Shown: in pieces, positions 2,235-50,842 of the stretch
How positions within the stretch are numbered: position 1 is the first letter of the stretch
Layout of the letters: each line of letters starts with the position of its first letter
NCBI GenBank assembly: GCA_028279585.1
Contig: JANQNL010000003.1
Span: 1,327 to 65,326 of the forward strand
Source of the DNA: Thermoplasmatota archaeon
Lineage (GTDB): Archaea > Thermoplasmatota > Penumbrarchaeia > JANQNL01
Direction of reading: 5' to 3'
DNA length: 64,000 nt
Notes under the pieces: model-generated
The model's database searches: none
Told to the model about the DNA's origin: nothing
Seen by the model: only the letters and a program-made list of their open reading frames with translations
Translations under genes and position numbers: made by a program

Positions 2235-2330
2235 TTTTTTGCATGCATTAGTCTATGGTGGGACAGAACGGATTCGACCAACCGCAAACTTAATCCCTTC
2301 CCCACACCCTACTTTCCCTGAGGGTATTTC

Positions 2331-6092: not shown

Positions 6093-8041
<1,949 letters not shown>

Positions 8042-23380: not shown

Positions 23381-26300
23381 TCAATCCTCTTCCTCAGTGC
23401 TCCATACCTCATCCCCATCCTCATCGATTGACTCAAGCTCTGCAAGTTCCTCTTCGAACTCCTCTTCCGGTGTTAGCTCTTGTAGTTCCTCATCCATATC
23501 CTCATCTGGAAGGTCATCCCATCCTTCATCCTCGGGATCCAATACTTCTACTTCGATAGGTTCGACCTTTGGCATGTCCTCTTCATCTTCCTCCACCTCC
23601 TCCTCTTCCTCGACCTCATCCGGTTCAGAGGCTTCCTCTTGATCTTGGGACATGCGGCTTCTGACGAACAGGAGCGCAACGATAGCGACCAGTATCAAGA
23701 CCAAGATCGCCACGATGATAAGGATGATGTTCGCGGTTCCCAGGTCTGAACTGGAACCACTACCTGGGTCCTTCTCGATGATCGGTAATGTATAATCTGC
23801 ATCGCCTGTTTCATTGACCGTCAGAGTGAAGAAATAGTCACCGACCGGTGCCTTGATGGTCACATCATATGTTCCGGGTTCCAATCCCTCGAACGTCACA
23901 TGGCCGTCATCGTTGGTGGTCTCTTCCGTTCCATCATCCAGTATCATTACGATACCATCTGCTGGTTCTCCATCCTCGTACACCAAGGGTCCTACATCAA
24001 TATCGTATGTAGGTGTAATCCCATCCCAGACCTTGACAGTAAAGTTGAGGATATCAGTACCACCCCGACCATCGGCCACTGTTAGCTCCACCCAATATGT
24101 TCCAATGTCTGCTTGGGTAGGAATACCTACGATCCTTCCAGTCTCGATGTCCAACCACCCTGCGTTCGTTCTCAATGACCAGGTCAATGTATCCCCGTCA
24201 AGGTCCGTCGCGATCAGGCTCTCGATATACATCTCGTCATAAACGACCATCGTAGATGGGTCCATGTCAATGATCGGGTCCTCGTTGGGTTCTGGGACGT
24301 CAATGACATTGATAGTGAACGTCTGTGTATGGAACTCATCTCCATCGGTGACGTTCACAATGACGATATGCTCTCCCACTTGGTCTTTCGTCGGTGTCCA
24401 TGTGATAGCGCCTGTTGCTCCATTGATGTTCATTCCTGCCGGAGCGCTATCGAATGAGAATGTCAGGACGTCCCCGTGAATGAGATCATCATCGATTGCG
24501 GTCACATTGTATGTGTACTTCACAAGTTCTGTAGCGTTGAGGACAGGTGTGCTGACGATCGACGGTGGGTCGTTCGTGTTCTCGACGGTCAAGGTAAAGT
24601 TCTCAACTGTCTGCCCACCTAATCCATCGCTCACCTGTATCTCTACCCAGTAGGAGCCTACATCATTGTTGAGAGGAGTTCCACTGAGTACCCTTGTTCC
24701 TGCGTCAAAGCCCAACCATCCTGCATTGCTGTCCATGGACCAGGTCAAGCTGTCACCTGTTGGATCAGGGTCTGTTGCAGAGTATGTGACGGAGTATAAT
24801 GTGTCCTCGTAGGCAGTATCAACATGGTCTGTATCGATGACAGGACCATCATTGGCATTTGATACTTCTATCGAGAAGTTTGTGAAGGATGAACCACCCT
24901 TCTCATCAGACACGGTGACATTGGCCCAGACGGACCCAACATCGTCGTTGGTCGGTGTTCCCGAGAGGACTCCGGTGTTGAGGTCGATATCGAGCCAATC
25001 CGCTTCTGTATGGAGAGACCATGTCAAAGTATCACCGGTAGGATCGATGTCGTGAGCCTCGTAATCGACGGAATACTCAACGTCCTCGGTGGCTGTCTCG
25101 ACATCCACCGTATCGATGATCGGGTCGTCATTGACGTTCTCTACGGTTAGGATGAAGTATTGGAAATCGCCCGCACCAACAGTGTCGTTGACGGTAACAT
25201 TCACCCAGTATGAGCCAACCTCTGAATTAGTCGGTGTTCCAGAAAGAACCCCGCTCATGACATCGATGCTCAACCATCCCGCATTCGTATCGAGTGCCCA
25301 GGTCTGCGAGTCGCTGGCATCAACATCCGTTGCATTGTAGTCGACCTCATACAGAACGTCCTCATCGGTCGTGATCTGCTCTAGGGTCGTTATTGAAGGT
25401 GCATCATTGGTGTTGAGAACGATCAGAGTGAGGTTAACAGTGTCCGTTGCATCGAACGCATCAGTGATGGTCATTTCCACCCAGAAGGTCCCAACATCAT
25501 TGTCCCCTGGAGTGCCTGATAGGACACCATCGGTCAAGGTCAACCAACCGCTCGCATTGGTCCTCAAAGACCATTGCGGGATGCCGCTCGGGACAATGGT
25601 GATATCGAAGAGGATGGTCTGGTTGTAGAACAGGTCCTCTGTGGCATCTGGTAGGGAATCAGTAAGGATCTGTGGAGGATAGTAGAACTCAAGAAGATGA
25701 TCGAAGTATGGATAGGACCTCGTGTTCTCGATGGCCCAGACATTGGTAAAGTCCCAGCCAGCTCCAGTGAACGTAGTGCTTGTCATCATCTGGGTCGTTG
25801 TCTGTCCAGTTCCACCATCACTTGCTGCCTGGCCCGACGTTTGAGTATCCCAGAAACAGTTGGTGATCGTGCCGAAATTCTCTCCGCAAAGGCCGCCTGT
25901 CAGGGTGGTTCCGGTTACCGATCCAGAGCTGTAGGCATCATCGATGGTTCCTTGGTTGCCGCCTACCAATCCACCGACCTTGTCGTTTCCGGACACATCT
26001 CCTTGAGCGTAACAGTCCTTGATGGTTCTTGTATTATTTCCTACTAAACTTCCGGTATTGTTGTTTCCAGAGACATCGCCATATGAGCAGCTGTGCTCGA
26101 TAATTGCATTGGAGTCAAAGGAGATTCCCGCCAACCCACCTACGAAGTCAATACCAGAAACATCACCAAAGTTTGTAGATGTGACAATACTTCCCCGGTC
26201 ATTCTCACCAATGATACCACCAACATTGTTCATTTCACCATCGACCGAGCCAAGGTTCGTGCAATTTGTAACATCGGAATCATAATTATAACCGATGATA

Positions 26301-29300
26301 CCGCCTACATCGTATGATGTTCCATAGATGTCATCGTGGTTCGTGCAATTGGCGAGTGTTAGGGTCCAGCCGCTACCAACAATACCAGCAACAGAAGAAT
26401 TTCCATAGACGTAACCGTAGTTGTGTGAATTGATCACTGATCCGGTACTGAAATACCCAATTATTCCACCCACAGCATTTGCGGTTCCGGTAACATTGCC
26501 ATTGTTGGTGCAATCCAAAACAGTTCGACTAGAACCATACGCACCTACGATCCCGGCACCATTCACAGATACACAGGTGATATCGCCCCAGTTAGTGCAG
26601 TTCGTGATATCCTTGTTACAATAACCGGTCATACCGCCAATATTAGAATCTCCGGAAACATTTCCAAAATTGACATTGTCTTTTAGTTCCCGGGTGGATC
26701 GGCCGGCGATACCGCCTCCATTAGAACCAGAAGAGTTGATGTCGCCATAGTTCACACATCGCTGAAGGTTTCCAGTATTAAGATAACCACAAATACCTCC
26801 GATTTGATCAACACCAGAAATGTTACCGTAATTATAGGAATTATGGATGTTACCACCACCCATTGAATGAAGACCAGAGATTCCACCGAGATAGTCTTCT
26901 CCACTAACATCGCCATAGTTGATATTGAAATTTAAGTCACCACCCCGATGCATTCCTATTATTCCACCGATCATTTCTTCACCGGATATTGTACCAAAAT
27001 TTTGATTATTAGTTGCCCAGTGACTCCCAGAAAATCGGTAAAAGTAGCCAATAATTCCTCCAACGTAGTCCTCAGTTCCTGTTACAGATGCATAGTTTGA
27101 GTTATGTTTTAGATCAGAGTTGGAGGCATATCCTGCAATCCCACCTACGTCCTCTGCTCCGTAAATTTCTCCATGATTCGAACAATTCTCAATCATTGAA
27201 TTGGAACCAAGGTATCCTACAATTCCTGCCGCATTATCCTCATCGGAAATAACAGAACCATAGTTGGAGCAATTATGGATCTCACCTGCAAAACCACCAA
27301 CAATACCACCAACCATAAAATCGGTAGCATAAATCGTACCATAGTTTATTAAACCAAAATAATAGGTGTTTTGCTGGAACCCAGAAATTCCACCGACGCT
27401 GTAATCACCAGTGACATTTCCGTGGTTCGAAGAGTTCACAACTGACGCACCATCTGCAATGCCGTTTATACCACCAGCATAAATTCCCGTCCCATTTATT
27501 ATTCCATAATTCTCACAATTGGAAATGGGAGTTCCATCATTTCCACCAATGATGCCGCCTGTGTTATGTTCACTAAAAATATAACCAAGGTTTGTACAAT
27601 TCTGGATAACACCCGTGTTAGATTGGCCAACAATTCCACCAGAGTATTCATTTCCAGAGATCATACCTTCATTTGTGCAGTTTTTGACCTGTGAAGAGAA
27701 TTGCATTCTTCCAACAAATCCTCCGACATCATCATCTCCACTTGATACATTTCCATAATTCGTGCAGTTGAAGATATAAGAATTTAAAGTAAGGAAGCCT
27801 GAAAATCCACCCAACCCCCAGTCCGTACCTCCGAACACATCGCCGTGGTTAGTCGTTTTACTGATTGTTGTTCCCTCAGCTTCACCTACGATCCCAGCAC
27901 CACGGCTGAGAGTACAATTGACATCGCCATAGTTTACACACATCTCAATGGTCGCAGAATTGGAATGCCCAACAAGCCCCCCTACATAGAATGAACTGGT
28001 TACATCTCCGTAATTGATGCAGTTGAACATAGTTTCATCACTAAAATAACCGCTTATTCCAGCGACATCTATACTGGTTCCAGTAACCAAACCTTCGTTT
28101 ACACAATTGGACAATCTTGCTTCACTACTTGATCCTGCAATACCTCCCAGATGGTGTTCCCCATCAATATTCCCGTAATTATATCCATCAATAATGTCTG
28201 ACTCCGCTACATAACCACATATTCCACCAACACTCTCCGTTCCGGTAACATTGCCATGATTGATCGGATTCTTAAGAGAACCAAAACCATCGATATACCC
28301 TGTGATACCACCGGTTGCTTCATCAGTGGCAGTTATCTCACCGTAGTTTTGAGTGTAGTTCAAGTAAATATCTTCCGAATTACCGATTATTCCAGCGGTG
28401 TATTCTACTCCATAAACATCACCATAATTGGTACAGTTCTCGATGGAAGCGACTTCGTTTCCACCAACGATTCCTCCGGACTTATAATCCCCCTTGATAG
28501 TACCATAATTGGTACAATTTCGAATATCCACCGTGTAGGCATTTGCAACAATTCCACCGGTACTTGTATCACTGTTTGTGACATCGCCATAGTTGTGGCA
28601 TCCGAAGATGTCAATGTAGTCTCCCACACCTACCAACCCACCGGTTTCATCACTTCCTTCGATATCTGCACTATTTGTACAGTTGTTAAGTACTCCATTT
28701 TCAAACAGACCAACCATCCCACCGATCAGACTATCACCTAGGATGGTACCCTCGATCGAGCTGTTGAATATAGTTCCCTCATAAAATACACCACAAAGGC
28801 CAATAAGATCATCTCCTTTGATGTAAGCATTGATCAAGTGCAGGTTCTCCAACTTTGAGTCCTGATCATTTATTTGTCCAAAGAGCCCAACACGATCCTC
28901 AGAAGGGCGGTTGATGTAAAGACCATCAACAACAAAGCCCTGACCATTCAACGAGCCAGTAAATGGAGTTGAGGTTGTTCCAACAGGTTCGAAACCATCC
29001 CCATCATACCAGAACTTTGACTCGGAAGCATCAAAACTGTTGACTATGGTGAAGTTCGCCCACAGGTAGTTCCTCATATTCTGAAGATCGAAAACGTTCT
29101 TGATCTTGAACGGATCGCCAACTGTTCCCGAACCCCCTAAGGTGGAATACGTCCCAAAGAATGGATAGGTCTCGTCCTCGAAGATGGACCAGATACCTGT
29201 GAAGTTCCAACCGGGAGTGATGAAAGTTGCCGCCTTTTGCATTAGGGCTGTTGTCTGTCCAGTTCCGCCATCACTTGTCGCTTGACCGGATGATACTGTG

Positions 29301-32300
29301 TCCCAGAAACAGTTTCGGATTGTTCCACCAGTGTTGTCACCACAGAACCCACCAAATGTACTTGATGCTGTCACAGCCCCAATGCTGTAACTTGTATTGA
29401 TGCGCCCGATATTCTCTCCAACAAAACCGCCAACGGTTGAACTTCCTGTGACCGAGCATTTTGAAAAACTGTTATCGATGGACCATTCGTTCCTTCCGGC
29501 AAATCCACCAGCAGTGTCTCCTGTCCCTGCACCTTTAACAACTGAACCAGTACTGAAACTTCGGTTGATCGATCCAAAATTCCGACCAACAAAACCACCG
29601 TATGTGCTGTTTCCAGTTATCGTTGCATCTATAGAAGCACTATTGTTGATTTCCATATTTGACCAGGCTGCAACGCCACCAATATAAATATCGCCGGTAA
29701 TGTCGCCGTAATTGAAGGAGTAATTTACCAACCCCTCACCATTTGCCTCTCCGACAACCCCGCCAATATAATCATCTCCTGAAACATCACCAAAATTATT
29801 CGAATTATAGATCGATCCTTCTATTATGATCCCGGCGATGCCCCCAAGACGATTTCCATAATAAACATCCCCATTATTATCACAATTGGAGATCTCACCA
29901 ATATCGAGATAACCGGTTATTCCACCGACACCATAATTTGCCACTATTAAGCCGTTGTTCACGGAATCAAAAACATCGCTGTCATCTTGTATACCGACAA
30001 TACCTCCAACGTAGACATCGCCTGAGATCGTGCCATAGTTGATGCAATCTATGATCTCTTGGCCATTTTCCTCACCGGCAATCCCACCAACCTCGTCATC
30101 TGCAGTAACACTTCCATAGTTCACACAATTATAGATCGAAGCGGTATTTCTGATCCGGCCAACAATACCACCAGCCTCGTCTCTGGTGGTAGAAACGTTT
30201 CCGAAGTTTACACAGCGTTCGATGGTTCCTCCACTTACATAGCCAAAAATTCCACCAACATCATCATTGTTGTGTGTTACATTCCCCCAGTTGATACAAT
30301 CCTGCCCTCCCTTGGAGTTTGACCCAGCTATCCCCCCTACTTCCTGGGCCTGACCATTGATCAGACCATAATTGGTATGGTTATTGAAGACCGATGCGGT
30401 ATTTGTTCCAACGATCCCACCAGTCGATCTTAGACCCTGGATGTGACCGTAATTTGTGCAATTGACAAATTCTGAACCTGCAAAGTAACCAACAATACCT
30501 GCGTTCCTCCAGCTGTTCCCTTTGATCGATCCATTGAATGTGCAATTCCTAAGAATGCCACCGCTTATTCTCCCTGCTAGGCCAGCTTTCTGGGAATTTG
30601 CCTCGATATCGAAATCGTCCATATGAATGTTCTGGAATACCGATGAACTGAGACCCGCGGTACCAAAAATGCCTTGATCGTTGCTCCTTGGCCTATAGAT
30701 GTTCAGGCCTGTTATTGTGTATCCCTGACCGTCCAGAGAACCCTTGAACATAGAAGAACTGGTCCCGACAGGAATGAAACCAACACCGCCATTCCAGACC
30801 TCGGTTTCTGAAGCATCAAAGCTGTTGTTAATAATATAAACTCCATTCAGGTCGTTCTCCATACCCTGGAGTTCGTAAACATTTGTGATAACATATGGGT
30901 CTCCGGCTGTTCCACTTCCAGTAGGTGTTGGATAAGTGATGAGGTCGAACATAGGACAAGTCTCGTCCTCTCTGATCATCCAGACATTTGTGAAGTCCCA
31001 GCCTTTGGCTGTAAATGTAGCCTGCATCATCATATCGTCATTCCAAGTTGCGATCCCGCCATCACTTGAACCAGTCCCGGAATTATCTCGATCAAAGAAG
31101 CAGTTTGCGGAAATGGTTCCACTGTTGTCACCGCAGAAACCGCCAACATTTGTATTTCCTAAAACAAGCCTTGTGCTGTAGGACATACTGATGGTTCCAG
31201 AGTTCTGTCCTACAAAACCACCAACAGAAGTATCACCGGTGACCTCACCCCAGGCATAAGTATTGTTGATCACTCCACTGTTGTCACCAACGAATCCACC
31301 GATACGATCATCACCGGATGCATCACCGGTAGCAGAGGAGTTTTCTATAGTGTCGCTATTTATACCTGCAAATCCACCGATCTCATCTGCCAAACCGGTT
31401 CCGGTAGCCGTCCCGGTTGCTGAACACCAGTAGATATCTCCACCATTGTATCCTATAAATCCCCCAGCCTGTGAAGAACTGGCCTGGGCATTCCCTGTTG
31501 CAGAGCAATACTTAAAGATAGCATCATCGCTCTCTCCAGCAAAACCCCCAATATAATCCGATCCGGTAGCATTACCGCTGCTTGAGCAATTCTCAATAGA
31601 TATGATCGTTTCGACATATCCAACGAATCCTGCAACATACGAAGTGCCGGATGCATCTCCTGAGCTTGTGGAATTAATGATAGACCCATAACTACCACCT
31701 ACAAAGCCACCTATGTCAGATAATCCATTTATGTCACCAGAAGCAGAACTGTTTGATATTGACCCGGAAAAGTGCAATCCAACGAAACCCCCAACATTGT
31801 CAACGCCTCCAACATCTCCGGTTGCAAAGCAATTTTCAACAGTGCCTTGGTTTTCTCCAATCAAGCCTCCAACATTACTCAAACCTGAAATATCTCCATA
31901 AGAATGGCAGTTGGTGACTGTAACGTCATTATTTACAGTTCCGGAAATACCTCCAATGCTTGATGCAGTACCAGTCATTTTTCCATAGTTATAACAGCTC
32001 CAAATTGAAGCGTTATCAAGCCTTCCAGCTATTCCACCAAGAAGTTGAGGGGAGTCTCCGTCACCATAGTTAATACAATCAAACATATCGCCAATTTGAA
32101 GCCTTCCCGCAATCCCACCAACATATTCATTACCAGAGAAGTTTCCTACATTAGTGCAGTTCCAAATATTTGATATATCATCTGCTCGACCTGCCACACC
32201 ACCAACCCATCGATCTCCGGTAAGATCGCCATAGTTTGAGGAGTTGCAAATATTAAGGTTATCTCCTTCCCCGACAATTCCACCGGTAAGATCATCTCCA

Positions 32301-34405
32301 GTAACATCACCATAGTTTATACAACGGTCTATTAGGCCATTTTGAAATAACCCAACGATTCCACCATTTCCCATATTGATATTGGAAACTGTTCCATAAT
32401 TCTTGCAATTGGTGATGTTGTAATCTTCTACATTACCGGCAATTCCCCCAACCCTGTGTCCACTGAGCGTACTAATGATGTCGCCATAATTATCACAGTC
32501 GATAATATCTGCATCAGACTCACCAACAATGCCACCAACATCTGCTTCGCCTGATACTGTAGCATAATTGATACAATTATCAATTGAGCCTAATTCCTTA
32601 TACCCGATCACACCACCAACCTCATAGTCTGTGGATGAAATGATACCATCAACAGTGCAGTTCCAGATATCCCCAAAGGAATGATAGCCAGCTATACCTG
32701 CGACATTTTCATCCCCGGTGAAGTTAACATTAGTCAAATCAATATCGTGAATATCTGTTCCTACACCACTTACATATCCGAAAATACCAACATAATCCCT
32801 GGTAGAGCGGTTGATGAACAAACCATCAATGGTATATCCCTCTCCGTTAAGGGAACCTGTGAACGGATCAGAATTAGAACCTACTGGATCATATCCGGCA
32901 CCACTGTTCCAGGTCAGGGTAGGAGTGGCGTCTATGTCGTTTACTATTTTATAATGAGCTGATTTGTTAAGCGTCATGTTCTGGAGTTCCCAGACATTGT
33001 GGATGAGATAAGGATTACCAATGGTTCCATTACCTTGTTTGAAAAGGCTCTCTGCACCGATGTAACGGCAGACCCTGACGTAATTATCTATCCTGATGAC
33101 CTCGCCGAACGGCCCATTGCCTTGCGGGTAGTTCGATGGGTTCCCCTCCTTTCGGTCGGCACGAAGAGCACCTGCTCCATGGACATCGATCAGGTTATAT
33201 ACACCCGAACCCGGAGGCATTTTCTCCATCCATCCATAAGCCTGACCAAAGGCAGCATATATGGCAAAGGATCCATTTGTGCCTGTGGTCCAGTTGTGGA
33301 GCGTGGTCCCGGTCCAGTAGTATGGGAATGTGTCGTTGTTCGCCTCGTCCTTTATCTTAGTACAATTGAACAATGGGTCAATGGTCGGGGTTCCATTTGT
33401 TGTGGGTGAGACCGAATAGTTGACGATCGAGTGAAGCTCTTTTGCGTCCGGAAGTCTCCAGTCATAGTAACCTGCGAACGTCATGGACTCAGCGTGGTCG
33501 AGTGCATCCGACCAGTTCATTCCAGATCCACTATCATATTGCTTCCACATAAGGCCCGTTGACCAGTCTGTGATAGTGCCATCTCCATTGTCCTCGAGGT
33601 CATTGACACCATAGTTGTCTCCACCACGGACGTACTGGACGTATGAGTAATTTGGTGTGCCCCCTTTTAAGGTAGTGCCATAGCCCTTCAATGTTCCATC
33701 TGCAAAGTTAACGCCAAATACCGTATGGACATTGTTCATAGTCGTGCTCACATACTGGGTCGACGACCAGTATTGGGCCTGAACGACATGCTCTCCTTTG
33801 GAAGTGTCCCCGTACTTGAATCCAAAGTAATTGGTATCTATGAAAGGCGTGAGCTCTGATGTATCTGTCCCTCCGGATTCCTCCCACCACTGGCAGTCCT
33901 CTCCCCTGAAATCAATGAGCGAGTACAGTTCCTTGATAGTTGGCACCCTCCAATCACTGTGACCACCTGTAGTGATGTTCCCGTTCGAGGCGTTGTTCAT
34001 AGCCTCCATCCACGGTGCCTTGTCATATCCATTGGGATCTGCCTGCCACATCAACCCGGTGATGTTGTCGGTGATGGTCCCGTCCCCATGGTCATAATAA
34101 CGAGCCTGGAACCCTTCATAGTTGGCATCCTGACCCCAGAACCCTTCTCCCTCCGAGGGAGTGGTAATGATACTATCGGTGTCGAATGCCAGATCCTGCA
34201 TGGTGTCAACCACAGGATAGCTCACTTCACTTGGATCGATATGGACCGAGGTTCGAACTGCAGCTTCAGCAGGCTCGACCAGCGGTCCATCGAGGATCGT
34301 TATGATCCCAACGAAACTGCTAACTATCAACATACATACTACCAATACGCTCAGTTTTCTACCCATAGGTTCACCCCGGAGGTCCAATTTCTCATATTTG
34401 TCCAT
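23381..34405 (-). CDS. Giant (3674 aa) type I membrane surface protein. Domain order: signal peptide, 2x DUF1566 (Lcl-like), three tandem super-modules of GLUG-type repeats (about 100 repeats), cadherin-like/He_PIG Ig domains, CarboxypepD_reg-like domain, TM helix, poly-acidic tail.
   Basis: DUF1566 motifs GDGTITDNITGLMWQ and TGLMWKQ. Repeats of the form NC[ST]N[YH]G...VGG[IL][AV]G with about 28 aa period. Ig-like domains (NDAPSI, NDDPII). C-terminal TM ANIILIIVAILVLILVAIVALLFV followed by about 95 aa of D/E-rich tail. A TATA abuts the first ATG, so the true start may be M14 (MGRKLSVLVV...). Confidence 0.85.
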   Translation of the reverse strand: MDKYEKLDLRGEPMGRKLSVLVVCMLIVSSFVGIITILDGPLVEPAEAAVRTSVHIDPSEVSYPVVDTMQDLAFDTDSIITTPSEGEGFWGQDANYEGFQARYYDHGDGTITDNITGLMWQADPNGYDKAPWMEAMNNASNGNITTGGHSDWRVPTIKELYSLIDFRGEDCQWWEESGGTDTSELTPFIDTNYFGFKYGDTSKGEHVVQAQYWSSTQYVSTTMNNVHTVFGVNFADGTLKGYGTTLKGGTPNYSYVQYVRGGDNYGVNDLEDNGDGTITDWSTGLMWKQYDSGSGMNWSDALDHAESMTFAGYYDWRLPDAKELHSIVNYSVSPTTNGTPTIDPLFNCTKIKDEANNDTFPYYWTGTTLHNWTTGTNGSFAIYAAFGQAYGWMEKMPPGSGVYNLIDVHGAGALRADRKEGNPSNYPQGNGPFGEVIRIDNYVRVCRYIGAESLFKQGNGTIGNPYLIHNVWELQNMTLNKSAHYKIVNDIDATPTLTWNSGAGYDPVGSNSDPFTGSLNGEGYTIDGLFINRSTRDYVGIFGYVSGVGTDIHDIDLTNVNFTGDENVAGIAGYHSFGDIWNCTVDGIISSTDYEVGGVIGYKELGSIDNCINYATVSGEADVGGIVGESDADIIDCDNYGDIISTLSGHRVGGIAGNVEDYNITNCKNYGTVSNINMGNGGIVGLFQNGLIDRCINYGDVTGDDLTGGIVGEGDNLNICNSSNYGDLTGDRWVGGVAGRADDISNIWNCTNVGNFSGNEYVGGIAGRLQIGDMFDCINYGDGDSPQLLGGIAGRLDNASIWSCYNYGKMTGTASSIGGISGTVNNDVTVTNCHSYGDISGLSNVGGLIGENQGTVENCFATGDVGGVDNVGGFVGLHFSGSISNSSASGDINGLSDIGGFVGGSYGSIINSTSSGDASGTSYVAGFVGYVETIISIENCSSSGNATGSDYIGGFAGESDDAIFKYCSATGNAQASSSQAGGFIGYNGGDIYWCSATGTATGTGLADEIGGFAGINSDTIENSSATGDASGDDRIGGFVGDNSGVINNTYAWGEVTGDTSVGGFVGQNSGTISMSYSTRLVLGNTNVGGFCGDNSGTISANCFFDRDNSGTGSSDGGIATWNDDMMMQATFTAKGWDFTNVWMIREDETCPMFDLITYPTPTGSGTAGDPYVITNVYELQGMENDLNGVYIINNSFDASETEVWNGGVGFIPVGTSSSMFKGSLDGQGYTITGLNIYRPRSNDQGIFGTAGLSSSVFQNIHMDDFDIEANSQKAGLAGRISGGILRNCTFNGSIKGNSWRNAGIVGYFAGSEFVNCTNYGHIQGLRSTGGIVGTNTASVFNNHTNYGLINGQAQEVGGIAGSNSKGGQDCINWGNVTHNNDDVGGIFGYVSGGTIERCVNFGNVSTTRDEAGGIVGRIRNTASIYNCVNYGSVTADDEVGGIAGEENGQEIIDCINYGTISGDVYVGGIVGIQDDSDVFDSVNNGLIVANYGVGGITGYLDIGEISNCDNNGDVYYGNRLGGIAGIIIEGSIYNSNNFGDVSGDDYIGGVVGEANGEGLVNYSFNYGDITGDIYIGGVAAWSNMEINNSASIDATITGNSTYGGFVGRNFGSINRSFSTGSVVKGAGTGDTAGGFAGRNEWSIDNSFSKCSVTGSSTVGGFVGENIGRINTSYSIGAVTASSTFGGFCGDNTGGTIRNCFWDTVSSGQATSDGGTGQTTALMQKAATFITPGWNFTGIWSIFEDETYPFFGTYSTLGGSGTVGDPFKIKNVFDLQNMRNYLWANFTIVNSFDASESKFWYDGDGFEPVGTTSTPFTGSLNGQGFVVDGLYINRPSEDRVGLFGQINDQDSKLENLHLINAYIKGDDLIGLCGVFYEGTIFNSSIEGTILGDSLIGGMVGLFENGVLNNCTNSADIEGSDETGGLVGVGDYIDIFGCHNYGDVTNSDTSTGGIVANAYTVDIRNCTNYGTIKGDYKSGGIVGGNEVASIENCTNYGDVYGVEYTAGIIGNSEDIYLNYTQNYGEITATDEATGGITGYIDGFGSLKNPINHGNVTGTESVGGICGYVAESDIIDGYNYGNIDGEHHLGGIAGSSSEARLSNCVNEGLVTGTSIDVAGISGYFSDETMFNCINYGDVTSSFYVGGLVGHSNSATIEMCVNYGDVNCTLSRGAGIVGEAEGTTISKTTNHGDVFGGTDWGLGGFSGFLTLNSYIFNCTNYGNVSSGDDDVGGFVGRMQFSSQVKNCTNEGMISGNEYSGGIVGQSNTGVIQNCTNLGYIFSEHNTGGIIGGNDGTPISNCENYGIINGTGIYAGGINGIADGASVVNSSNHGNVTGDYSVGGISGFQQNTYYFGLINYGTIYATDFMVGGIVGGFAGEIHNCSNYGSVISDEDNAAGIVGYLGSNSMIENCSNHGEIYGAEDVGGIAGYASNSDLKHNSNYASVTGTEDYVGGIIGYFYRFSGSHWATNNQNFGTISGEEMIGGIIGMHRGGDLNFNINYGDVSGEDYLGGISGLHSMGGGNIHNSYNYGNISGVDQIGGICGYLNTGNLQRCVNYGDINSSGSNGGGIAGRSTRELKDNVNFGNVSGDSNIGGMTGYCNKDITNCTNWGDITCVSVNGAGIVGAYGSSRTVLDCTNNGNVTGTANAVGGIIGYFSTGSVINSHNYGYVYGNSSVAGIVGSGWTLTLANCTNHDDIYGTSYDVGGIIGYNYDSDVTNCTNLGSVDGEMNNVGGIIGENDRGSIVTSTNFGDVSGIDFVGGLAGISFDSNAIIEHSCSYGDVSGNNNTGSLVGNNTRTIKDCYAQGDVSGNDKVGGLVGGNQGTIDDAYSSGSVTGTTLTGGLCGENFGTITNCFWDTQTSGQAASDGGTGQTTTQMMTSTTFTGAGWDFTNVWAIENTRSYPYFDHLLEFYYPPQILTDSLPDATEDLFYNQTILFDITIVPSGIPQWSLRTNASGWLTLTDGVLSGTPGDNDVGTFWVEMTITDAFDATDTVNLTLIVLNTNDAPSITTLEQITTDEDVLYEVDYNATDVDASDSQTWALDTNAGWLSIDVMSGVLSGTPTNSEVGSYWVNVTVNDTVGAGDFQYFILTVENVNDDPIIDTVDVETATEDVEYSVDYEAHDIDPTGDTLTWSLHTEADWLDIDLNTGVLSGTPTNDDVGSVWANVTVSDEKGGSSFTNFSIEVSNANDGPVIDTDHVDTAYEDTLYSVTYSATDPDPTGDSLTWSMDSNAGWLGFDAGTRVLSGTPLNNDVGSYWVEIQVSDGLGGQTVENFTLTVENTNDPPSIVSTPVLNATELVKYTYNVTAIDDDLIHGDVLTFSFDSAPAGMNINGATGAITWTPTKDQVGEHIVIVNVTDGDEFHTQTFTINVIDVPEPNEDPIIDMDPSTMVVYDEMYIESLIATDLDGDTLTWSLRTNAGWLDIETGRIVGIPTQADIGTYWVELTVADGRGGTDILNFTVKVWDGITPTYDIDVGPLVYEDGEPADGIVMILDDGTEETTNDDGHVTFEGLEPGTYDVTIKAPVGDYFFTLTVNETGDADYTLPIIEKDPGSGSSSDLGTANIILIIVAILVLILVAIVALLFVRSRMSQDQEEASEPDEVEEEEEVEEDEEDMPKVEPIEVEVLDPEDEGWDDLPDEDMDEELQELTPEEEFEEELAELESIDEDGDEVWSTEEED

Positions 34406-34471
34406 ATATATAGCATTCTAGTCAGGTCAGTTCAAGTGATACAACCTGAACCAATGGCTTGGATCGACCGA

Positions 34472-37375
34472 CTAGTCTGCCCATTCATCTTCATCCTGTT
34501 CTTCTTCCAACTCCACCTGGTCCCACCCCTCGTCATCTGGTTCATCTTCATCGTAATCGAGGTCATCGTCCTCATCGAACTCATCTTCTCGCGGTTCATC
34601 TCCATCTACGCTCTCTTCCTCCTCGACCACCTCCGTTTCCGGCTTGATGTCCTCTGTGACCTCCGCGTCCACGATCTCGTCCTTGTCCTCGAACAGGTCC
34701 TCCTCCCCTATCTCCACATCCTCCTCCGGGATCCTCGGGCTTTCCTCTTCCTCCCTGTTCTTCAGGAACAGCAGGACGCCTACGATAATCGCTATGATGA
34801 CAATAACAGCGACAACAAGAAGGACCAGGTAGAGAGCGTTCCCAGCAAGGTCGCTGGAGGACTGGCTTCCACCATCTTCCCCATCTGTGGCCCCACCATC
34901 CGTGGTGTTGGTCCCACCGTCGGTTCCATCAGTGGTTCCGCCATCGGTACCGTCCGTAGTGTTGCCATCGGAGCTTCCTCCATCGGTACCGTCTGTGGCC
35001 CCACCATCAGTAGAACCGCCATCGCTTCCACCATCTCCACCATCCACGACGACCTCCTCGATGCGCTCGATGAACACTGTTTGCTTGCACACATCCGAGT
35101 TTATTGTGCCATCAGAGATCGTTAGGGTGATAGTGTAGGTCATGTTCTCCTCGAGTTCAGGATAGGTGTAGGATGTCTCCAGACCCTGGCTGACATTTCC
35201 CTCGCCAAGGTCCCAGAGGTAGGTGAGCAGATCTCCATCTACATCAGAAGCTGTATTTGCTTTGAGCGCGACTGATGTCCCATTGACGCTTGCCGTGAAG
35301 TTGTTGTTCACTGGTTCGTCGTTGACCGGAAGGACCGTGACATCCACAAAGGCCGAGACCTCGAGCTCTGTGTCGTTGGCTGTGAAGTAGAGCCTCTCCG
35401 CTCCATTGTAGTTCAGCTTTGGGGTGAGCTCCACGGTCTCGTTCGGTAGGATGATGATGCTGATGTTCACGTTCTCCTCGAAAGTGAAGACCAGATCGTC
35501 CCCATCGATGTCCGAGAACCAGTGGTTCAGGTCAATGTCGTTATTGACAGTGTCCTCATCGAAGCTGAAGTCGTCAACGGAGTTGTTCACCCTCGGCCCA
35601 TCATTGGTGTTGTGGACAGTGAGCGTGAACAAAGAATGGGCCTCCCCACCGTTCCCATCGGCAACAGATACATTGACAGAGTAGGTGCCGATGTCTGCCT
35701 GGACCGGTGTCCCTGAAAGGAGGCCCCCGGTCGTCATGGAGAGAAAACCTGCATCCGAGCTCATGGCCCAGAACAGATTGTCTGAAGTTGGATCGATGTC
35801 ATCTGCGGAGTATTGGACCGAGTACTTCTCATCTTCGTGTGCGTCGAGAACATCGTTGGTCAGGATCATCGGGTCATCGTTCACGTTAATGACCTCGAGC
35901 GTGAAGTTCGTATGGTCCGACATGAACGTGGTGTCGGTCACAGTAACGTTGACCCAGTAGGTCCCAACATCCTCGTTCAATGGGGTTCCAGACAGGTTGC
36001 CGGAGATCGCGTCCATGGAAAGGAAACCTGCATCGGTATCGACGGTCCAGGTAAGGACGTTCTCGTCGAGGTCGATAGCTGTATACGTCACAAGATACTC
36101 TTCATCCTCTGTGGCGTTGATGTCGTTCACCGTCTGGATCTCAGGTTCGAAGTCCGGAGGGTCCACCTCGAATGCGACCCTGCAAGGCCGGACCATGTTG
36201 AAGATCCTAATGATATCTCCCTGGGGTCCATTGCCATTAGGCCAGTTGGATGGGTCTCCGTCCTTCGGGTCGCTCCTCTGGGCTCCTGCGCCGTGGACGT
36301 CTGTGAAGACGTAATTGCCGGAGTTCGGAGGCATCTCGTTCCATCCCCATGCCTCACCGAAGGCTACGTAGGCTCCCCAAGGTGTACCACCATCAAGGTG
36401 TGTAGAGGATGACCAATAGAACCCATAATCCGGATAGATTCCGGAACCGATATCTGTGATATTGAACACATCATCGATCGCGGGTCCGACATTCTGGGGG
36501 TCCGTTGCGTTCGGAGCTTTGGAGTATTCAAGGATACCCTGAAGCTCCTTCGCGTTCGGCAGGTACCAATCATCATGTCCTGCAAGTGTCAGTGAAGTGC
36601 AGTAGTCCAGTGCATCACTCCAGTTCATCCCGGAGCCAGAGTCGTCCTTGGCCCACATGAGGCCTGTGGCGTTATCGGTGATCGTTCCATCGCCATTGTC
36701 GATGAAGTCATTGACACCATAGTCTGTAGGACCACGGACGTACATCGCTTCGCACTCCTTTTCGAATTGGTTCCCCGGTGGACCCACAGGCTCTGCTGGG
36801 TACCCCTTGATCCTGCCATCTGCGAAGTTCACACCAAAGGCGGTCTTGTCCCCACCCATGGTCTCTCCGACATAGAGTGTGGATGACCAGTACTGAGCAT
36901 CGATGAACCTCTCCCCTGCAGACTCATCTCCGTACTCGAAATCAAAGATGTCGTCATCGAGGAACGGGTCGGAAGTGGCAGCGCTGTTACCACAATATCC
37001 CGAAAAGTCCATCAGGGAGTATAGCTCCTTTATAGTTGGGAGTCTCCAATCATCATACCCCGCAAGGTCGAGGTCATCGGCACCAGACACGGCATCATCC
37101 CAGTTCACGTCCTCGCCTGGTGTCTTCTGCCACATGAGGCCGGTGTTCAGGTCCAGGACCGTCCCATCTCCCATGTCTTTATAGCTTGGAGAGGTACCAT
37201 CGACCTGGGCATCCTGGCCATACCATTGCTCCCCCTCGTTCGGGTCGGGTATGTATCCGTCCTCATCAAAGCAGTCTTCCTGGTTCGTGTCTACCACGAC
37301 ATAGCTTGCCATGACAAGGGACGAGAACAGTACAAAGCTTATCATTCCTATGAGCAGGGATGTTGTCTTTCTCAT
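34472..37375 (-). CDS. Surface protein (~967 aa). Domain order: signal peptide, 2x DUF1566, about 4 cadherin-like/He_PIG domains, a G/S/T/D-rich stalk, TM helix, poly-acidic tail.
   Basis: MRKTTSLLIGMISFVLFSSLVMA signal with a GGAGGTG RBS. The ORF track extends to 37528. The DUF1566 region is highly similar to that of the giant protein. The stalk reads DGGDGGSDGGSTDGG... The TM is LYLVLLVVAVIVIIAIIVGVLLFL, followed by an acidic tail containing DEGWD. Confidence 0.8.
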   Translation of the reverse strand: MRKTTSLLIGMISFVLFSSLVMASYVVVDTNQEDCFDEDGYIPDPNEGEQWYGQDAQVDGTSPSYKDMGDGTVLDLNTGLMWQKTPGEDVNWDDAVSGADDLDLAGYDDWRLPTIKELYSLMDFSGYCGNSAATSDPFLDDDIFDFEYGDESAGERFIDAQYWSSTLYVGETMGGDKTAFGVNFADGRIKGYPAEPVGPPGNQFEKECEAMYVRGPTDYGVNDFIDNGDGTITDNATGLMWAKDDSGSGMNWSDALDYCTSLTLAGHDDWYLPNAKELQGILEYSKAPNATDPQNVGPAIDDVFNITDIGSGIYPDYGFYWSSSTHLDGGTPWGAYVAFGEAWGWNEMPPNSGNYVFTDVHGAGAQRSDPKDGDPSNWPNGNGPQGDIIRIFNMVRPCRVAFEVDPPDFEPEIQTVNDINATEDEEYLVTYTAIDLDENVLTWTVDTDAGFLSMDAISGNLSGTPLNEDVGTYWVNVTVTDTTFMSDHTNFTLEVINVNDDPMILTNDVLDAHEDEKYSVQYSADDIDPTSDNLFWAMSSDAGFLSMTTGGLLSGTPVQADIGTYSVNVSVADGNGGEAHSLFTLTVHNTNDGPRVNNSVDDFSFDEDTVNNDIDLNHWFSDIDGDDLVFTFEENVNISIIILPNETVELTPKLNYNGAERLYFTANDTELEVSAFVDVTVLPVNDEPVNNNFTASVNGTSVALKANTASDVDGDLLTYLWDLGEGNVSQGLETSYTYPELEENMTYTITLTISDGTINSDVCKQTVFIERIEEVVVDGGDGGSDGGSTDGGATDGTDGGSSDGNTTDGTDGGTTDGTDGGTNTTDGGATDGEDGGSQSSSDLAGNALYLVLLVVAVIVIIAIIVGVLLFLKNREEEESPRIPEEDVEIGEEDLFEDKDEIVDAEVTEDIKPETEVVEEEESVDGDEPREDEFDEDDDLDYDEDEPDDEGWDQVELEEEQDEDEWAD

Positions 37376-40600: not shown

Positions 40601-40696
40601 CTCTTCGGCTGATGCCGTGGTCATCACACATATCATCGAGAAGATGATCATAATGACCAAGGCTGCTATTGATAAGATAGTGGTGGTCCTTTTCAT
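37655..40696 (-). CDS. Surface protein (~1013 aa). Domain order: signal peptide, FG-GAP/VCBS beta-propeller, about 5 PKD domains, TM helix, acidic tail.
   Basis: FG-GAP motifs (GDVNGDQNMDIAFGG, DLNDDGSPDIAAAG, DIDGDGDLDLIAA, DMDGDGDKDIAGA). PKD-like repeats (ANAG.DQ...LDGS.S.D.DG.I..W.W). TM then KRKKDEDGDDEE...DWDDDDDDLEFMD. ATG at 40696 with an AGGAGGTG RBS. Confidence 0.8.
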   Translation of the reverse strand: MKRTTTILSIAALVIMIIFSMICVMTTASAEELDDFGTSVSTNLPTSGAYNFITVGDVNGDQNMDIAFGGNDYGSYNTLGIEVYTGNGAGTWTSASTGLPTVDSWGGIALADADEDGNMELYGANTWYNSASGPNKGVGAWEYSGGSWSTTGITSPVTSGVANNLLVANITGGPGLDIAVCSSKQPSFGLAVYSGSGSSPISWTSFSNGLPSSGQFTGIDVIDLNDDGSPDIAAAGYYSSTGMRVYTQGASGWTDVSSTLPTAAYTGDFTGVACGDLNNDGHVDMVYCDRYDGMEVLLGNSGGAGGSSFTWTTPTSTNGGMASSGTNGMFSQIDLTDIDGDGDLDLIAAKESSGLHLYLGDGSTSPGTGFSFTEVSDKGLPTSGTYYGSQFFDMDGDGDKDIAGASWGSGIKVYETKFATGSLPVADAGDDQGIVLGNTVNLDGTASCDAEDCPSGDAVGSLLIYDWGISSQPAGSTMTDANLSPSDAAAKPSLVPTHEGTYTLTLRVQDSDLGWSSVSDTVDIVVTAANTVPTANAGSDQTVYIGASVTLNGSASTDAEDAMNALTFDWNVSASNPAAVSLSSESAMMPTFPAPDTTGTYTFSLVVKDTSNAWSVEDEVSITVEVPPNVKPTANAGPDISGYPNTKIYLDGSDSVDTDGSIVVWDWNCTSHASLAITDKDTYNPFFTPTTVGTYTFTLTVKDDRGAWALEDEVVVNIIQDNTPPTPNAGTDLQAYVNTVVYLDGANSTDPEGSIAGWEWVCTSYSLTLTNANSSAPSFTPTETGTYTFSLRVMDDLDLWSTGTETVIVIVIDRPNIKPIAAAGADVAAEVGDTVSLDGTGSSDSDGTIVSWEWNCTTHPSLSIIDEVKETASFKATEAGTYVFTLVVKDEDGAWSATDTMTVTVKAQEPVIENTTDEPNGTEDPPMDQNPPIDDGDGEQGSDPTLLYAVIGGVVAILVVCAINVVAIVLVIIMKRKKDEDGDDEEHYDDDCEENDGQNVDWDDDDDDLEFMD

Positions 40697-40867: not shown

Positions 40868-41350
40868 CTACTCCAGGCTAAGGTAGAGCAATATGGCCAA
40901 AGCTATGCCGATACACATGTCCGATAGCATCATGAACGGGCCTAAACCCTCGAGCTTGTATCCGAAGGTCTCATGGATGACAGGATTGGCAGTGATGGCG
41001 TAGATGAACAGTGCACTCATCATGATGAGCAGTCCTAGAGTGAACTTGGACTTGACCTTTTGGTACATGTTGATATACAAGTATATCAACGGGAAGAGCA
41101 GCGCGATATTGATGAATGAGAACATGGTCTTGAGGAAATAGAACTGTCTATGACCTACAGGTCTAGCAGGTGGAGGGGGTTGACCATCCGGTGGAGGAGG
41201 TTGACCATCCGGAGGAGTTGGCTGGTCATCGGCAGATCTCTCATCTTCTGTTTCTATGACCATAGGCAGCACGCTCGTTGCTAAGGCTGCTATGATCACG
41301 CCTAATATGACAAGACCTGCGATCATCCCGATCCGGTGAAGCTCTTTCAT
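40868..41350 (-). CDS. Membrane protein with Pro-rich PPDGQPPPP repeats
   Basis: TM helix, then TPPDGQPPPPDGQPPPPARP, then 3-4 TM segments. AAGGAG RBS before the ATG at 41350. Confidence 0.5.
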   Translation of the reverse strand: MKELHRIGMIAGLVILGVIIAALATSVLPMVIETEDERSADDQPTPPDGQPPPPDGQPPPPARPVGHRQFYFLKTMFSFINIALLFPLIYLYINMYQKVKSKFTLGLLIMMSALFIYAITANPVIHETFGYKLEGLGPFMMLSDMCIGIALAILLYLSLE

Positions 41351-41379
41351 TTGTTCACACTCCTTACTACGACTTGCTA

Positions 41380-42830: not shown

Positions 42831-42837
42831 TTACCAA

Positions 42838-50820: not shown

Positions 50821-50842
50821 ATCTATCCCTCCTCACTTCTTC

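What the first reader, a model, noticed from the sequence alone, without database searches (positions are those of the whole stretch)
23381..23740. A transmembrane helix plus homologous poly-acidic tail (EG[WY]D motif, near-terminal Trp) is shared by four large surface proteins
Four genes carry this module: 23381-34405, 34472-37375, 37655-40696 and 59817-63647. Each ends with a single TM helix followed by a 40-130 aa D/E-rich tail. The tails are more than compositionally biased. Gene 1 has PEDEGWDDLPDED and gene 2 has PDDEGWDQVELEE. Gene 4 has DDEGYDDFED and gene 3 has VDWDDDDDD. All place an aromatic residue 2-9 residues from the C-terminus (EVWSTEEED, DEWAD, LEFMD, DVWM). The same genome also uses PGF-CTERM (gene 2331-3233) for another surface protein. 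This tail therefore looks like a distinct C-terminal anchoring or sorting module that is not described. A cytoplasmic partner or a dedicated export/processing route is plausible.
Basis: seen in the sequence. Interest (0 to 1): 0.72.

Follow-up and report, generated by a model that had tools for sequence, protein, structure and literature searches.

The report
Acidic cytoplasmic tails on archaeal surface proteins
Four large cell-surface proteins of an uncultured archaeon are each held in the membrane by one helix followed by a floppy, very acidic tail inside the cell, but the tails are not a conserved sorting module; they look like fast-evolving low-complexity tails with a few possibly meaningful tryptophan motifs.

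Summary
Exactly four ORFs in the window end with one hydrophobic helix, a K/R cluster and a 39-133 aa tail that is 47-61% Asp/Glu. EGWD occurs in g1 and g2, EGYD in g4, and an aromatic residue lies 2-7 residues from every C-terminus.

The interpretation as a distinct, homologous sorting module is only weakly supported.
- Composition-corrected BLASTP finds no similarity between the tails.
- Shuffle tests give modest, partly post-hoc significance.
- An exhaustive profile search of 1.84 billion proteins recovers three of the four query proteins, then only heterogeneous acidic tails.
- Relatives from other genomes keep the helix-plus-tail design but carry different tails. In the g4 family, 27 of 31 end Lys/Arg-rich and none has a terminal Trp.
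- No Pfam or NCBIfam family covers the tail.
- The features that define PGF-CTERM-type signals are not met.

Best reading: ordinary type I membrane anchors with disordered polyanionic cytoplasmic tails that grow partly by codon-repeat slippage. Some hints point to selection on the acid-flanked aromatics. These are 6.6% aromatics against 1% in extracellular acidic linkers, DEGWD kept despite different codons, and DDDDVWM added after g4's basic block. A shared cytoplasmic docking motif is therefore not excluded. The host phylum is unresolved.

The parts
23381..34405 (-). g1: giant surface protein (3674 aa from the first ATG; 3661 aa from the ATG at 34366 in the database version P0169). It has a signal-peptide-like N-terminus, Lcl_C (DUF1566), GLUG repeats, He_PIG/Big_9 Ig-like repeats, a TM helix and an acidic tail.
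23663..23728 (-). g1 transmembrane helix IILIIVAILVLILVAIVALLFV, followed by RSR.
   Evidence: AF2 helix with block-mean pLDDT 84-96
23384..23662 (-). g1 cytoplasmic tail, 93 aa with net charge about -47. It contains LDPEDEGWDDLPDE (23501-23542) and ends in EDGDEVWSTEEED (23381-23422 including the stop).
   Evidence: mostly coil with pLDDT 54-71; an 18-nt repeat x2.4
34472..37375 (-). g2: 967-aa surface protein (Lcl_C, He_PIG, Big_9, Cadherin_5, PKD, G/T/D-rich linker, TM, acidic tail); identical to P0003.
34763..34834 (-). g2 transmembrane helix LYLVLLVVAVIVIIAIIVGVLLFL, followed by KNR.
34475..34762 (-). g2 cytoplasmic tail, 96 aa. It contains DEPDDEGWDQVELE (34505-34546) and ends in EQDEDEWAD (34472-34501 including the stop).
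37655..40696 (-). g3: 1013-aa surface protein (FG-GAP repeats, five K319L-like PKD domains, TM, short acidic tail); identical to P0123.
37775..37861 (-). g3 transmembrane segment LLYAVIGGVVAILVVCAINVVAIVLVIIM, followed by KRKK.
37658..37774 (-). g3 cytoplasmic tail, 39 aa. It contains NVDWDDDDDD and ends in LEFMD. It has no EG[WY]D.
59817..63647 (+). g4: 1276-aa gingipain-like (Peptidase_C25) surface protein with CARDB and Big_9 domains, a TM helix and a long tail; identical to P0124.
63171..63245 (+). g4 transmembrane helix GLILLIVAALVILLVVIVIVVVFVM, followed by KGK.
63246..63644 (+). g4 cytoplasmic tail, 133 aa. It has an acidic/Tyr block containing DEYDDEGYDDFEDQ (63357-63398), then a mixed block with KIWKPEEEE. 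A basic block PPRRRRKGKGRKGRKGKGRKRRPKQ follows, and the tail ends in DDDDVWM (63621-63647 including the stop). Much of it is built from short tandem DNA repeats.
50843..52327 (-). Internal control: a 494-aa FG-GAP surface protein of the same genome. It has an acidic extracellular linker, a TM helix and only a 5-aa basic end (RKRAR), so an acidic tail is not obligatory for anchoring.
40868..41739 (-). An ArsR/SdpR-like HTH (41380-41739) and a small multi-pass membrane protein (40868-41350; 'DUF8036' in precomputed annotation) immediately upstream of g3. They are a possible regulator pair and are not shown to be linked to the tails.

Best explanation
The four proteins are ordinary single-pass (type I, N-out/C-in) cell-surface proteins of an uncultured archaeon.

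**Anchor.** An N-terminal signal-peptide-like segment sends the ectodomain (adhesin-type Ig, PKD, FG-GAP and GLUG repeats, or a gingipain-like peptidase) across the membrane. A 22-29 residue hydrophobic helix stops transfer. Two to four Lys/Arg right after the helix fix the orientation. What follows stays in the cytoplasm as an intrinsically disordered polyanionic tail.

**Tail.** The tail is not a conserved domain or a cleavable sorting signal. It is low-complexity sequence that expands and diverges quickly, partly by slippage of short codon repeats. It is replaced by quite different charged tails in relatives from other genomes.

**Shown versus inferred.** Most of what the four tails share is composition. 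The acid-flanked Trp/Tyr/Phe (EG[WY]D, near-terminal W/F) are the only candidates for specific contacts, and their function is inferred, not shown. The shown steps are the architecture, the lack of family membership, the lack of conservation in relatives, and the repeat origin of parts of the tails. The inferred steps are the cytoplasmic location and the disorder, taken from topology rules and a single-sequence AF2 model.
For: - **Architecture.** Searches show signal-peptide-like N-termini, one C-terminal helix and a K/R cluster.
- **Disorder.** AF2 gives a confident helix and a low-confidence coil tail.
- **No family.** Pfam and NCBIfam cover only the ectodomains. The tail gets only sub-threshold look-alikes: TMEM154, SIT and FAM176.
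- **No composition-corrected similarity** between the tails.
- **Exhaustive profile search.** Three query proteins score 166, 147 and 77 bits. There is then a gap to 52 bits or less, filled with unrelated acidic or Tyr-rich tails.
- **g4 relatives** (30-41% identity, mostly 40-90% coverage). 31 of 36 have a TM helix plus a tail. Of these, 27 end K/R-rich, only 2 are at least 40% D/E, none has Trp in the last 9 residues and 1 has the motif.
- **g2 relatives.** Only 10 of 119 have a TM helix plus tail, and none has the motif.
- **Other type I proteins** on related contigs have unrelated tails.
- **Repeat origin.** The g4 tail DNA contains a 12-nt repeat x5, a 27-nt repeat x2.2 and a 24-nt repeat x2.2. 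The g1 tail has an 18-nt repeat x2.4.
- **Internal control.** A paralogous-type FG-GAP protein in the same window is anchored with only RKRAR after its helix.
Against: Several observations suggest the aromatics are not just noise.
- Motif and terminal-Trp recurrence beat within-tail shuffles (p about 7e-4 and 0.02).
- The g1 and g4 tails align collinearly better than shuffles (p=0.0035).
- DEGWD in g1 and g2 is encoded with different codons at every degenerate position, so it is kept at the protein level and was not copied recently.
- The cytoplasmic tails are 6.6% aromatic, against 1% in the acidic extracellular linkers of the same proteins.
- g4 keeps its family's basic block but has DDDDVWM added after it.
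- A clade of g1/g2 relatives ends in VKWE.
- Subclades of g4 relatives conserve tail motifs: KGE[MI]xFD..SFDEAFGDE, and juxtamembrane WDEF, DDFF or DKFF.
Confidence: 0.55

Rival explanations
1. The tails carry a genome-specific short linear motif: an acid-flanked Trp/Tyr such as EG[WY]D, plus a near-terminal W/F. This motif docks all four surface proteins to one cytoplasmic partner with a basic and hydrophobic pocket, for example a cytoskeletal, membrane-remodelling or quality-control protein. The tails would have converged on it within this genome.
For: - Shuffle statistics.
- Protein-level conservation of DEGWD with divergent codons.
- Aromatic enrichment in the cytoplasmic but not the extracellular acidic segments.
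- g4 gained DDDDVWM beyond its family-typical basic end.
- VKWE ends in P0069, P0084 and P0087.
- Archaeal-looking Ig-repeat proteins with W-acidic tails: P0231 with five EEWDEDEL-like repeats, and P0213 ending in DEDFWE.
- Conserved tail motifs in g4 relatives show that such tails can be under constraint.
Against: - The patterns were defined after seeing the data.
- Only four proteins from one 64-kb window were available.
- The position of the aromatic varies (-2, -3, -3, -7).
- g3 lacks the Gly motif.
- The g1-g2 tails are not more alike than shuffles overall (p=0.58).
- No partner candidate is encoded nearby.
- P0213 and P0231 were retrieved with a profile that rewards Trp, so they are biased.
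- Relatives mostly lack the motif.
Confidence: 0.25
2. The helix plus acidic tail is a dedicated C-terminal sorting or processing signal, comparable to PGF-CTERM/archaeosortase or rhombosortase signals. A specific export or processing enzyme would recognise it.
For: - The same genome uses a PGF-CTERM-like signal on another surface protein, so C-terminal sorting systems exist here.
- Four unrelated ectodomains share the design.
Against: - There is no conserved motif immediately before the helix. The sequences there are SSSDLGTAN, SDLAGNALY, SDPTLLY and NFLEENG.
- The tails are 39-133 aa and acidic, not under about 10 aa and basic.
- No sorting-signal HMM reaches its cut-off. The best is PACE-CTERM at 16.7 bits against a cut-off of 110.
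- Relatives have quite different tails.
- No sortase-like or rhomboid gene lies in the window.
Confidence: 0.05
3. The tail works physically rather than through a motif. A long polyanion cannot be dragged through the bilayer, so it would plug the single helix against pull-out forces on very large adhesins. It might also bind cations at the inner membrane face.
For: - The tail occurs on very large extended ectodomains of up to 3661 aa.
- Net charge is -18 to -48.
- Charged tails, acidic or basic, are near-universal in the g4 family (31 of 36). This fits a requirement for charge rather than for sequence.
Against: - The FG-GAP protein at 50843-52327 and many g2 relatives manage with a few basic residues or with other anchors.
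- This reading does not explain the aromatic enrichment.
- No force or ion-binding data exist.
Confidence: 0.12

Closest known systems
Archaeal C-terminal sorting signals (PGF-CTERM/archaeosortase A and relatives)
   Same: They sit at the C-terminus of archaeal surface proteins and include one hydrophobic helix. The same window has a PGF-CTERM-like protein (2331-3233).
   Different: Those signals have a signature motif just before the helix and a very short basic end, and they are cleaved. Here there is no such motif, the tail is 39-133 aa and acidic, no sorting-signal HMM matches above cut-off, and relatives differ in their tails.
Generic type I (bitopic) membrane anchoring of surface proteins with a disordered cytoplasmic tail, for example the eukaryotic TMEM154, SIT and FAM176 look-alikes hit below threshold
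   Same: Signal peptide, large ectodomain, single helix, positive residues after the helix, and a charged low-complexity cytoplasmic tail.
   Different: The Pfam matches are far below the gathering scores (17-20 bits against 27-32) and reflect architecture, not descent. Polyacidic tails of this length have not, to my knowledge and in the four text searches I ran on this, been described for archaeal surface proteins.
Eukaryotic acidic-cluster and tryptophan-acidic linear motifs in cytoplasmic tails (furin and CI-MPR acidic clusters; kinesin-light-chain W-acidic motifs; the acidic-Trp end of WASP-family proteins), cited from general knowledge
   Same: A Trp embedded in Asp/Glu within a disordered cytoplasmic segment, sometimes at the extreme C-terminus (DEDEWAD, EGWDD, VDWDD).
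   Different: This is a resemblance only. No homology was found and no partner such as a KLC TPR domain, Arp2/3 or PACS was identified. PDB sequence searches with the tails found nothing. The host phylum is unresolved.
Gingipain-like (Peptidase_C25) extracellular peptidases of sedimentary archaea (Thermoplasmata / MBG-D type)
   Same: g4 has a Peptidase_C25 domain (154 bits) with CARDB and Ig-like domains. Its relatives have the same architecture, including a TM helix and a charged tail. One relative is named as coming from a Thermoplasmata MAG.
   Different: g4's tail is far more acidic than those of its relatives and ends in DDDDVWM instead of a K/R run.

Membership tests
PGF-CTERM / archaeosortase-type sorting signal | Conserved signature motif (PGF or equivalent) immediately N-terminal of the helix | tested here: not met
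   The pre-helix sequences are SSSDLGTAN, SDLAGNALY, SDPTLLY and NFLEENG. By contrast, 2331-3233 has VPGF before its helix.
PGF-CTERM / archaeosortase-type sorting signal | Very short, basic C-terminal end after the helix | tested here: not met
   The tails are 93, 96, 39 and 133 aa with net charge -18 to -48.
PGF-CTERM / archaeosortase-type sorting signal | Match to a curated sorting-signal HMM above its cut-off | tested here: not met
   The NCBIfam scan gave only PACE-CTERM-PROT at 16.7 bits against a cut-off of 110 for g4, and nothing for g1-g3.
PGF-CTERM / archaeosortase-type sorting signal | Cognate archaeosortase or exosortase encoded in the genome | not testable with these tools
   Only 64 kb of the genome is available, and none of the window ORFs scanned is one.
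Type I single-pass membrane protein | N-terminal signal-peptide-like segment and a large extracytoplasmic domain set | tested here: met
   The N-termini are MGRKLSVLVVCMLIV.., MRKTTSLLIGMISFVLF.., MKRTTTILSIAALVIMII.. and MSLKTLIALMLVLLLTIP... The domains are of surface type. This rests on inspection; no dedicated signal-peptide predictor was available.
Type I single-pass membrane protein | One C-terminal hydrophobic helix followed by positive residues (positive-inside) | tested here: met
   Hydropathy scan; AF2 helix with block-mean pLDDT 84-96; RSR, KNR, KRKK and KGK directly after the helices.
Proposed new 'acidic-tail module' as a homologous family | Sequence similarity among the four tails beyond composition | tested here: inconclusive
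   Composition-adjusted BLASTP finds none. Alignment against shuffles gives g1-g4 p=0.0035, g2-g4 p=0.027, g3-g4 p=0.025 and g1-g2 p=0.58. The motif shuffle gives p about 7e-4, post hoc.
Proposed new 'acidic-tail module' as a homologous family | Conservation of EG[WY]D and the near-terminal aromatic in homologues from other genomes | tested here: not met
   Among g4 relatives, 0 of 31 have a terminal Trp and 1 of 31 has the motif. Among tailed g2 relatives, 0 of 10 have the motif and 3 of 10 have a terminal Trp, all from one clade ending in VKWE.
Proposed new 'acidic-tail module' as a homologous family | A profile of the tails retrieves further members from sequence databases | tested here: not met
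   In the exhaustive search of 1.84e9 representatives, only g4, g1 and g2 score above 52 bits and g3 is not retrieved. The remainder is heterogeneous. The word-indexed search was uninformative.
Eukaryote-type W-acidic / acidic-cluster linear motifs | Trp flanked by Asp/Glu in a disordered cytoplasmic segment | tested here: met
   EGWDD, EGWDQ, VDWDD, DEWAD and DVWM; the tail is predicted as coil.
Eukaryote-type W-acidic / acidic-cluster linear motifs | Presence of a cognate binding partner and demonstrated binding | not testable with these tools
   There is no whole proteome and no binding assay. PDB sequence searches with the tails returned nothing relevant.
Peptidase family C25 (g4 ectodomain only) | Pfam Peptidase_C25 match above the gathering score | tested here: met
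   154.3 bits against a cut-off of 23, covering residues 105-512. The catalytic residues were not checked.

The most novel reading that the evidence does not exclude
In this uncultured archaeon, the acid-flanked tryptophans in the cytoplasmic tails (EG[WY]D and a near-terminal W) form a shared docking code. The archaeon's aconitase is closest to those of Heimdallarchaeota MAGs, but its phylum is unresolved. The code would couple several unrelated surface adhesins and a surface peptidase to one cytoplasmic machine, such as a cytoskeletal or membrane-remodelling system. That would be a prokaryotic counterpart of eukaryotic W-acidic and acidic-cluster tail signals. It would have arisen by convergence within the genome; g4 appears to have added DDDDVWM to an otherwise family-typical basic tail.
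Probability: 0.12. Interest if true: 0.7.

Novelty: new variant of a known kind. Interest (0 to 1): 0.33.

Why it matters
If the tails are just low-complexity appendages, the finding is descriptive. It would tell annotators that many large surface proteins of uncultured sediment and marine archaea are anchored by a plain type I helix with a long charged cytoplasmic tail, not by a sortase-type signal. If the acid-flanked tryptophans are a real docking motif, they would be a rare case of inside-the-cell signalling or coupling by archaeal surface proteins. They would also give a simple peptide handle for fishing out the cytoplasmic partner in an uncultured lineage.

Tried and rejected
2. **Genome scan with g2.** It found no relatives.
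3. **Genome scan with the neighbouring aconitase.** I hoped for synteny with g4 orthologues. It returned Heimdallarchaeota MAG loci at 69-72% identity. These share no synteny, have GC 0.33 and carry no tail-bearing proteins.
4. **Metagenome scan with the conserved HTH upstream of g3.** It returned 80 loci, and the HTH and membrane-protein pair is conserved in 52 of them. Almost none carries TM-plus-tail surface proteins, so the pair is not a general companion of such tails.
5. **Cluster look-ups for names or taxonomy.** Nearly all clusters were singletons, and none gave a useful name or an organism.
6. **Text searches.** I searched for described acidic or W-acidic tails in archaea, for the run accession and for DUF8036. 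Nothing relevant turned up.
7. **PDB sequence searches with tail peptides.** Nothing meaningful was found.
8. **My first guess that 6377-8041 is a thermosome was wrong.** It is a GroEL.
9. **Recent gene conversion as the source of the shared DEGWD** is rejected, because the codons differ.
Full report
**What is in the sequence.** The ORF list and translations and a six-frame hydropathy scan show that exactly four ORFs in the window end in a hydrophobic helix followed by an Asp/Glu-rich tail.
- g1: 23381-34405(-). The database version P0169 is 3661 aa and starts at 34366.
- g2: 34472-37375(-), 967 aa.
- g3: 37655-40696(-), 1013 aa.
- g4: 59817-63647(+), 1276 aa.

The finding's coordinates (23381-23740) cover g1's helix (23663-23728) and tail (23384-23662). 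All four have signal-peptide-like N-termini. Their ectodomains are of surface type but mutually different:
- g1: Lcl_C, GLUG and He_PIG/Big_9.
- g2: Lcl_C, Ig-like and PKD.
- g3: FG-GAP and five PKD domains.
- g4: Peptidase_C25 (gingipain-like), CARDB and Big_9.

Each helix is followed at once by two to four Lys/Arg and then by 39-133 residues that are 47-61% D+E, with net charge -18 to -48. A single-sequence AlphaFold model of g1's last 139 residues gives a confident helix (block-mean pLDDT 84-96). The tail is low-confidence coil with one short helix. The topology is therefore N-out/C-in with a cytoplasmic disordered tail. This is inferred from the signal peptide, the single helix and the positive-inside cluster.

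**Is the sharing more than composition?** The evidence is mixed.
- Composition-adjusted BLASTP finds no significant similarity between any pair of tails tested.
- Within-tail shuffles give p about 7e-4 for [DE]G[WYF][DE] in at least three tails. The pattern was defined after seeing the data, so the true significance is weaker. They give p about 0.02 for Trp in the last nine residues of at least three tails.
- Gapped local alignment scores against shuffles give g1-g4 p=0.0035, g2-g4 p=0.027, g3-g4 p=0.025 and g1-g2 p=0.58. The g1-g4 alignment is collinear: EPxE, then EG[WY]DD[LF], then [VI]W..EEE.
- The DEGWD shared by g1 and g2 uses a different codon at every degenerate position. It is therefore kept at the protein level and is not a recent DNA copy.
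- The cytoplasmic tails are 6.6% Trp/Phe/Tyr. The acidic extracellular linkers of the same proteins are 1%.
- Large parts of the g4 tail, and a piece of the g1 tail, are short tandem DNA repeats (12-nt x5, 27-nt x2.2 and 24-nt x2.2 in g4; 18-nt x2.4 in g1). This is the signature of slippage-driven low-complexity growth.

**Is it a family?** No Pfam or NCBIfam model covers the tails. Only sub-threshold matches to eukaryotic type I proteins with acidic tails (TMEM154, SIT, FAM176) appear, and they reflect architecture rather than descent.

A profile of the four linker-helix-tail segments (A1) was searched exhaustively against 1.84 billion representative proteins. g4, g1 and g2 came back at 166, 147 and 77 bits, and g3 was not retrieved. 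Nothing else scored above 52 bits.

The other 145 hits are a heterogeneous collection. Counting g1's own database entry, 59 of the sequences have a C-terminal helix plus an acidic tail. Nine of those have Trp in the last nine residues and nine have the motif. A few look like related archaeal Ig-repeat surface proteins with W-acidic tails: P0231 with five EEWDEDEL-like repeats, and P0213 ending in DEDFWE. They were selected by a profile that rewards Trp, so they are not independent evidence.

**What homologues do.**
- **g4 relatives.** They share 30-41% identity over 40-90% of the length, and one is labelled as coming from a Thermoplasmata MAG. Nearly all keep the helix plus a charged tail (31 of 36), but the tails differ. 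Of the 31, 27 end in a Lys/Arg run, only 2 are at least 40% acidic, none has a near-terminal Trp and one has the motif.
- **g4 itself.** It retains the family-typical basic block (PPRRRRKGKGRKGRKGKGRKRRPKQ) and has DDDDVWM after it.
- **Motifs within g4 subclades.** Short tail motifs are conserved there: KGE[MI]xFD..SFDEAFGDE in P0125-P0127, and juxtamembrane WDEF, DDFF, DKFF or DDYF in about nine others. Cytoplasmic tails of this protein class can therefore be under local constraint.
- **g2 relatives.** Most are bacterial Lcl_C proteins without a helix. Ten have a helix plus tail, and none of them has the motif. One clade of near-full-length relatives (P0069, P0084, P0087; about 40% identity) has short tails ending in VKWE.
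- **Other type I proteins** on contigs of these relatives have unrelated tails.
- **Internal control.** A FG-GAP surface protein in the same window (50843-52327) has its acidic run outside the cell and only RKRAR after its helix. An acidic tail is therefore not required for anchoring in this organism.

**Comparison with known signals.** PGF-CTERM-type signals are defined by a motif directly before the helix, a very short basic end and a cognate archaeosortase. The first two features were tested and are not met. No sorting-signal HMM reaches its cut-off. Gene 2331-3233 of the same window does show a PGF-CTERM-like end on a choice-of-anchor T family protein, so the contrast lies within one genome. 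The acid-flanked Trp resembles eukaryotic W-acidic and acidic-cluster tail motifs. That is a resemblance recalled from general knowledge. No partner could be sought, and PDB sequence searches with the tails returned nothing.

**Context and host.** The window is archaeal: it encodes TBP and aIF5A. It also carries a bacterial-type GroEL, not a thermosome.

Its aconitase is 69-72% identical to those of Heimdallarchaeota MAGs and at most 55% identical to anything else returned. The only named relative of g4 is from a Thermoplasmata MAG. The phylum is therefore unresolved. Nearly all of the window proteins looked up are singletons in the protein collection.

An ArsR/SdpR-like HTH and a small multi-pass membrane protein lie immediately upstream of g3. 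The same pair lies upstream of the g1/g2 relative P0069. The pair is adjacent in 52 of 80 metagenome loci, but those loci rarely encode helix-plus-tail surface proteins. I do not link the pair to the tails.

**Verdict.** The interpretation as a distinct homologous anchoring or sorting module is largely not supported.

The best-supported reading (confidence about 0.55) is a plain type I anchor with a fast-evolving, disordered polyanionic cytoplasmic tail. The main rival (about 0.25) is that the acid-flanked aromatics are a genome-specific docking motif for a common cytoplasmic partner, and several modest observations keep it alive. A physical charged-plug role (about 0.12) and a processed sorting signal (about 0.05) are less likely.

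A proteome-wide survey of the complete MAG and peptide-binding tests would decide between these readings. Neither could be done from one 64-kb window with the database quotas available.

Noticed in passing
window 40868-41739 (-); L002 8926-9722: An ArsR/SdpR-like HTH gene and a small multi-pass membrane protein ('DUF8036' in precomputed annotation, not reproduced by my own hmmscan) lie directly upstream of g3. The same pair lies upstream of the g1/g2 relative P0069. The two genes are adjacent in 52 of 80 metagenome loci. This may be a membrane-sequestration regulator pair like SdpR/SdpI.
   Followed up: partly
window 6377-8041 (+): A bacterial-type GroEL (773 bits to the NCBIfam GroEL model) lies on a contig that also encodes archaeal TBP and aIF5A. 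It is not a thermosome.
   Followed up: partly
window 57434-59506 (-); L006-L012: The aconitase is 69-72% identical to those of Heimdallarchaeota MAGs and at most 55% identical to all other hits. The flanks share no synteny, and the GC of those loci is 0.33 against 0.52 here. This reflects either an Asgard affiliation or gene transfer. The host phylum is unresolved.
   Followed up: partly
window 26000-34000: GC falls to 0.43-0.46 with GC skew near -0.2 across the GLUG-repeat body of g1, against about 0.52 in the flanks. The cause could be repeat composition or foreign origin; I did not examine it.
   Followed up: no
window 1910-3233: A choice-of-anchor T family protein (2331-3233) has a PGF-CTERM-like end (VPGF, helix, RRLYK). 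It lies next to divergent tRNA-Ala(GGC) and tRNA-Ile(GAT) genes.
   Followed up: partly
window 48583-52327 (-): Two more FG-GAP surface proteins lie here. One (50843-52327) has an acidic extracellular linker and only RKRAR after its helix. In the other (48583-50820) the FG-GAP ectodomain is fused to a multi-pass membrane domain. They sit in a run of short-chain dehydrogenases with a DUF362 Fe-S protein.
   Followed up: partly
proteins P0178, P0215, P0250, P0272, P0287, P0290; P0222, P0226, P0245: Unrelated proteins with a helix and an acidic or Tyr-rich tail share conserved ends. One set has a '[DE]FEFEFL[DN][LM]D'-like motif at or near the C-terminus, and another ends in 'DDEGVKI[FY]KK'. g3's DDLEFMD end faintly resembles the first set. 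The source organisms are unknown.
   Followed up: no
proteins P0125-P0137, P0151, P0152: Cytoplasmic tails of g4 relatives carry conserved short motifs. P0125-P0127 have KGE[MI]xFD..SFDEAFGDE. About nine others have an aromatic-acidic juxtamembrane motif (AWDEF, DWDEF, DDFF, DKFF, DDYF) 8-12 residues after the helix.
   Followed up: partly
window 62925-63881 (-), 33959-35125 (+): Long antisense ORFs overlap the tail-coding and repeat regions. Their products are runs of Leu/Ile/Val/Phe and Ser. They are mirror artefacts of the GAN-rich coding strand, not genes.
   Followed up: partly
window 42408-43173 (-) and 56421-56900 (-): A PIN-like ORF (42408-42830) and a small upstream ORF (42838-43173) look like a toxin-antitoxin pair by inspection of the sequences. 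A second PIN-domain gene, confirmed by Pfam, lies at 56421-56900.
   Followed up: no
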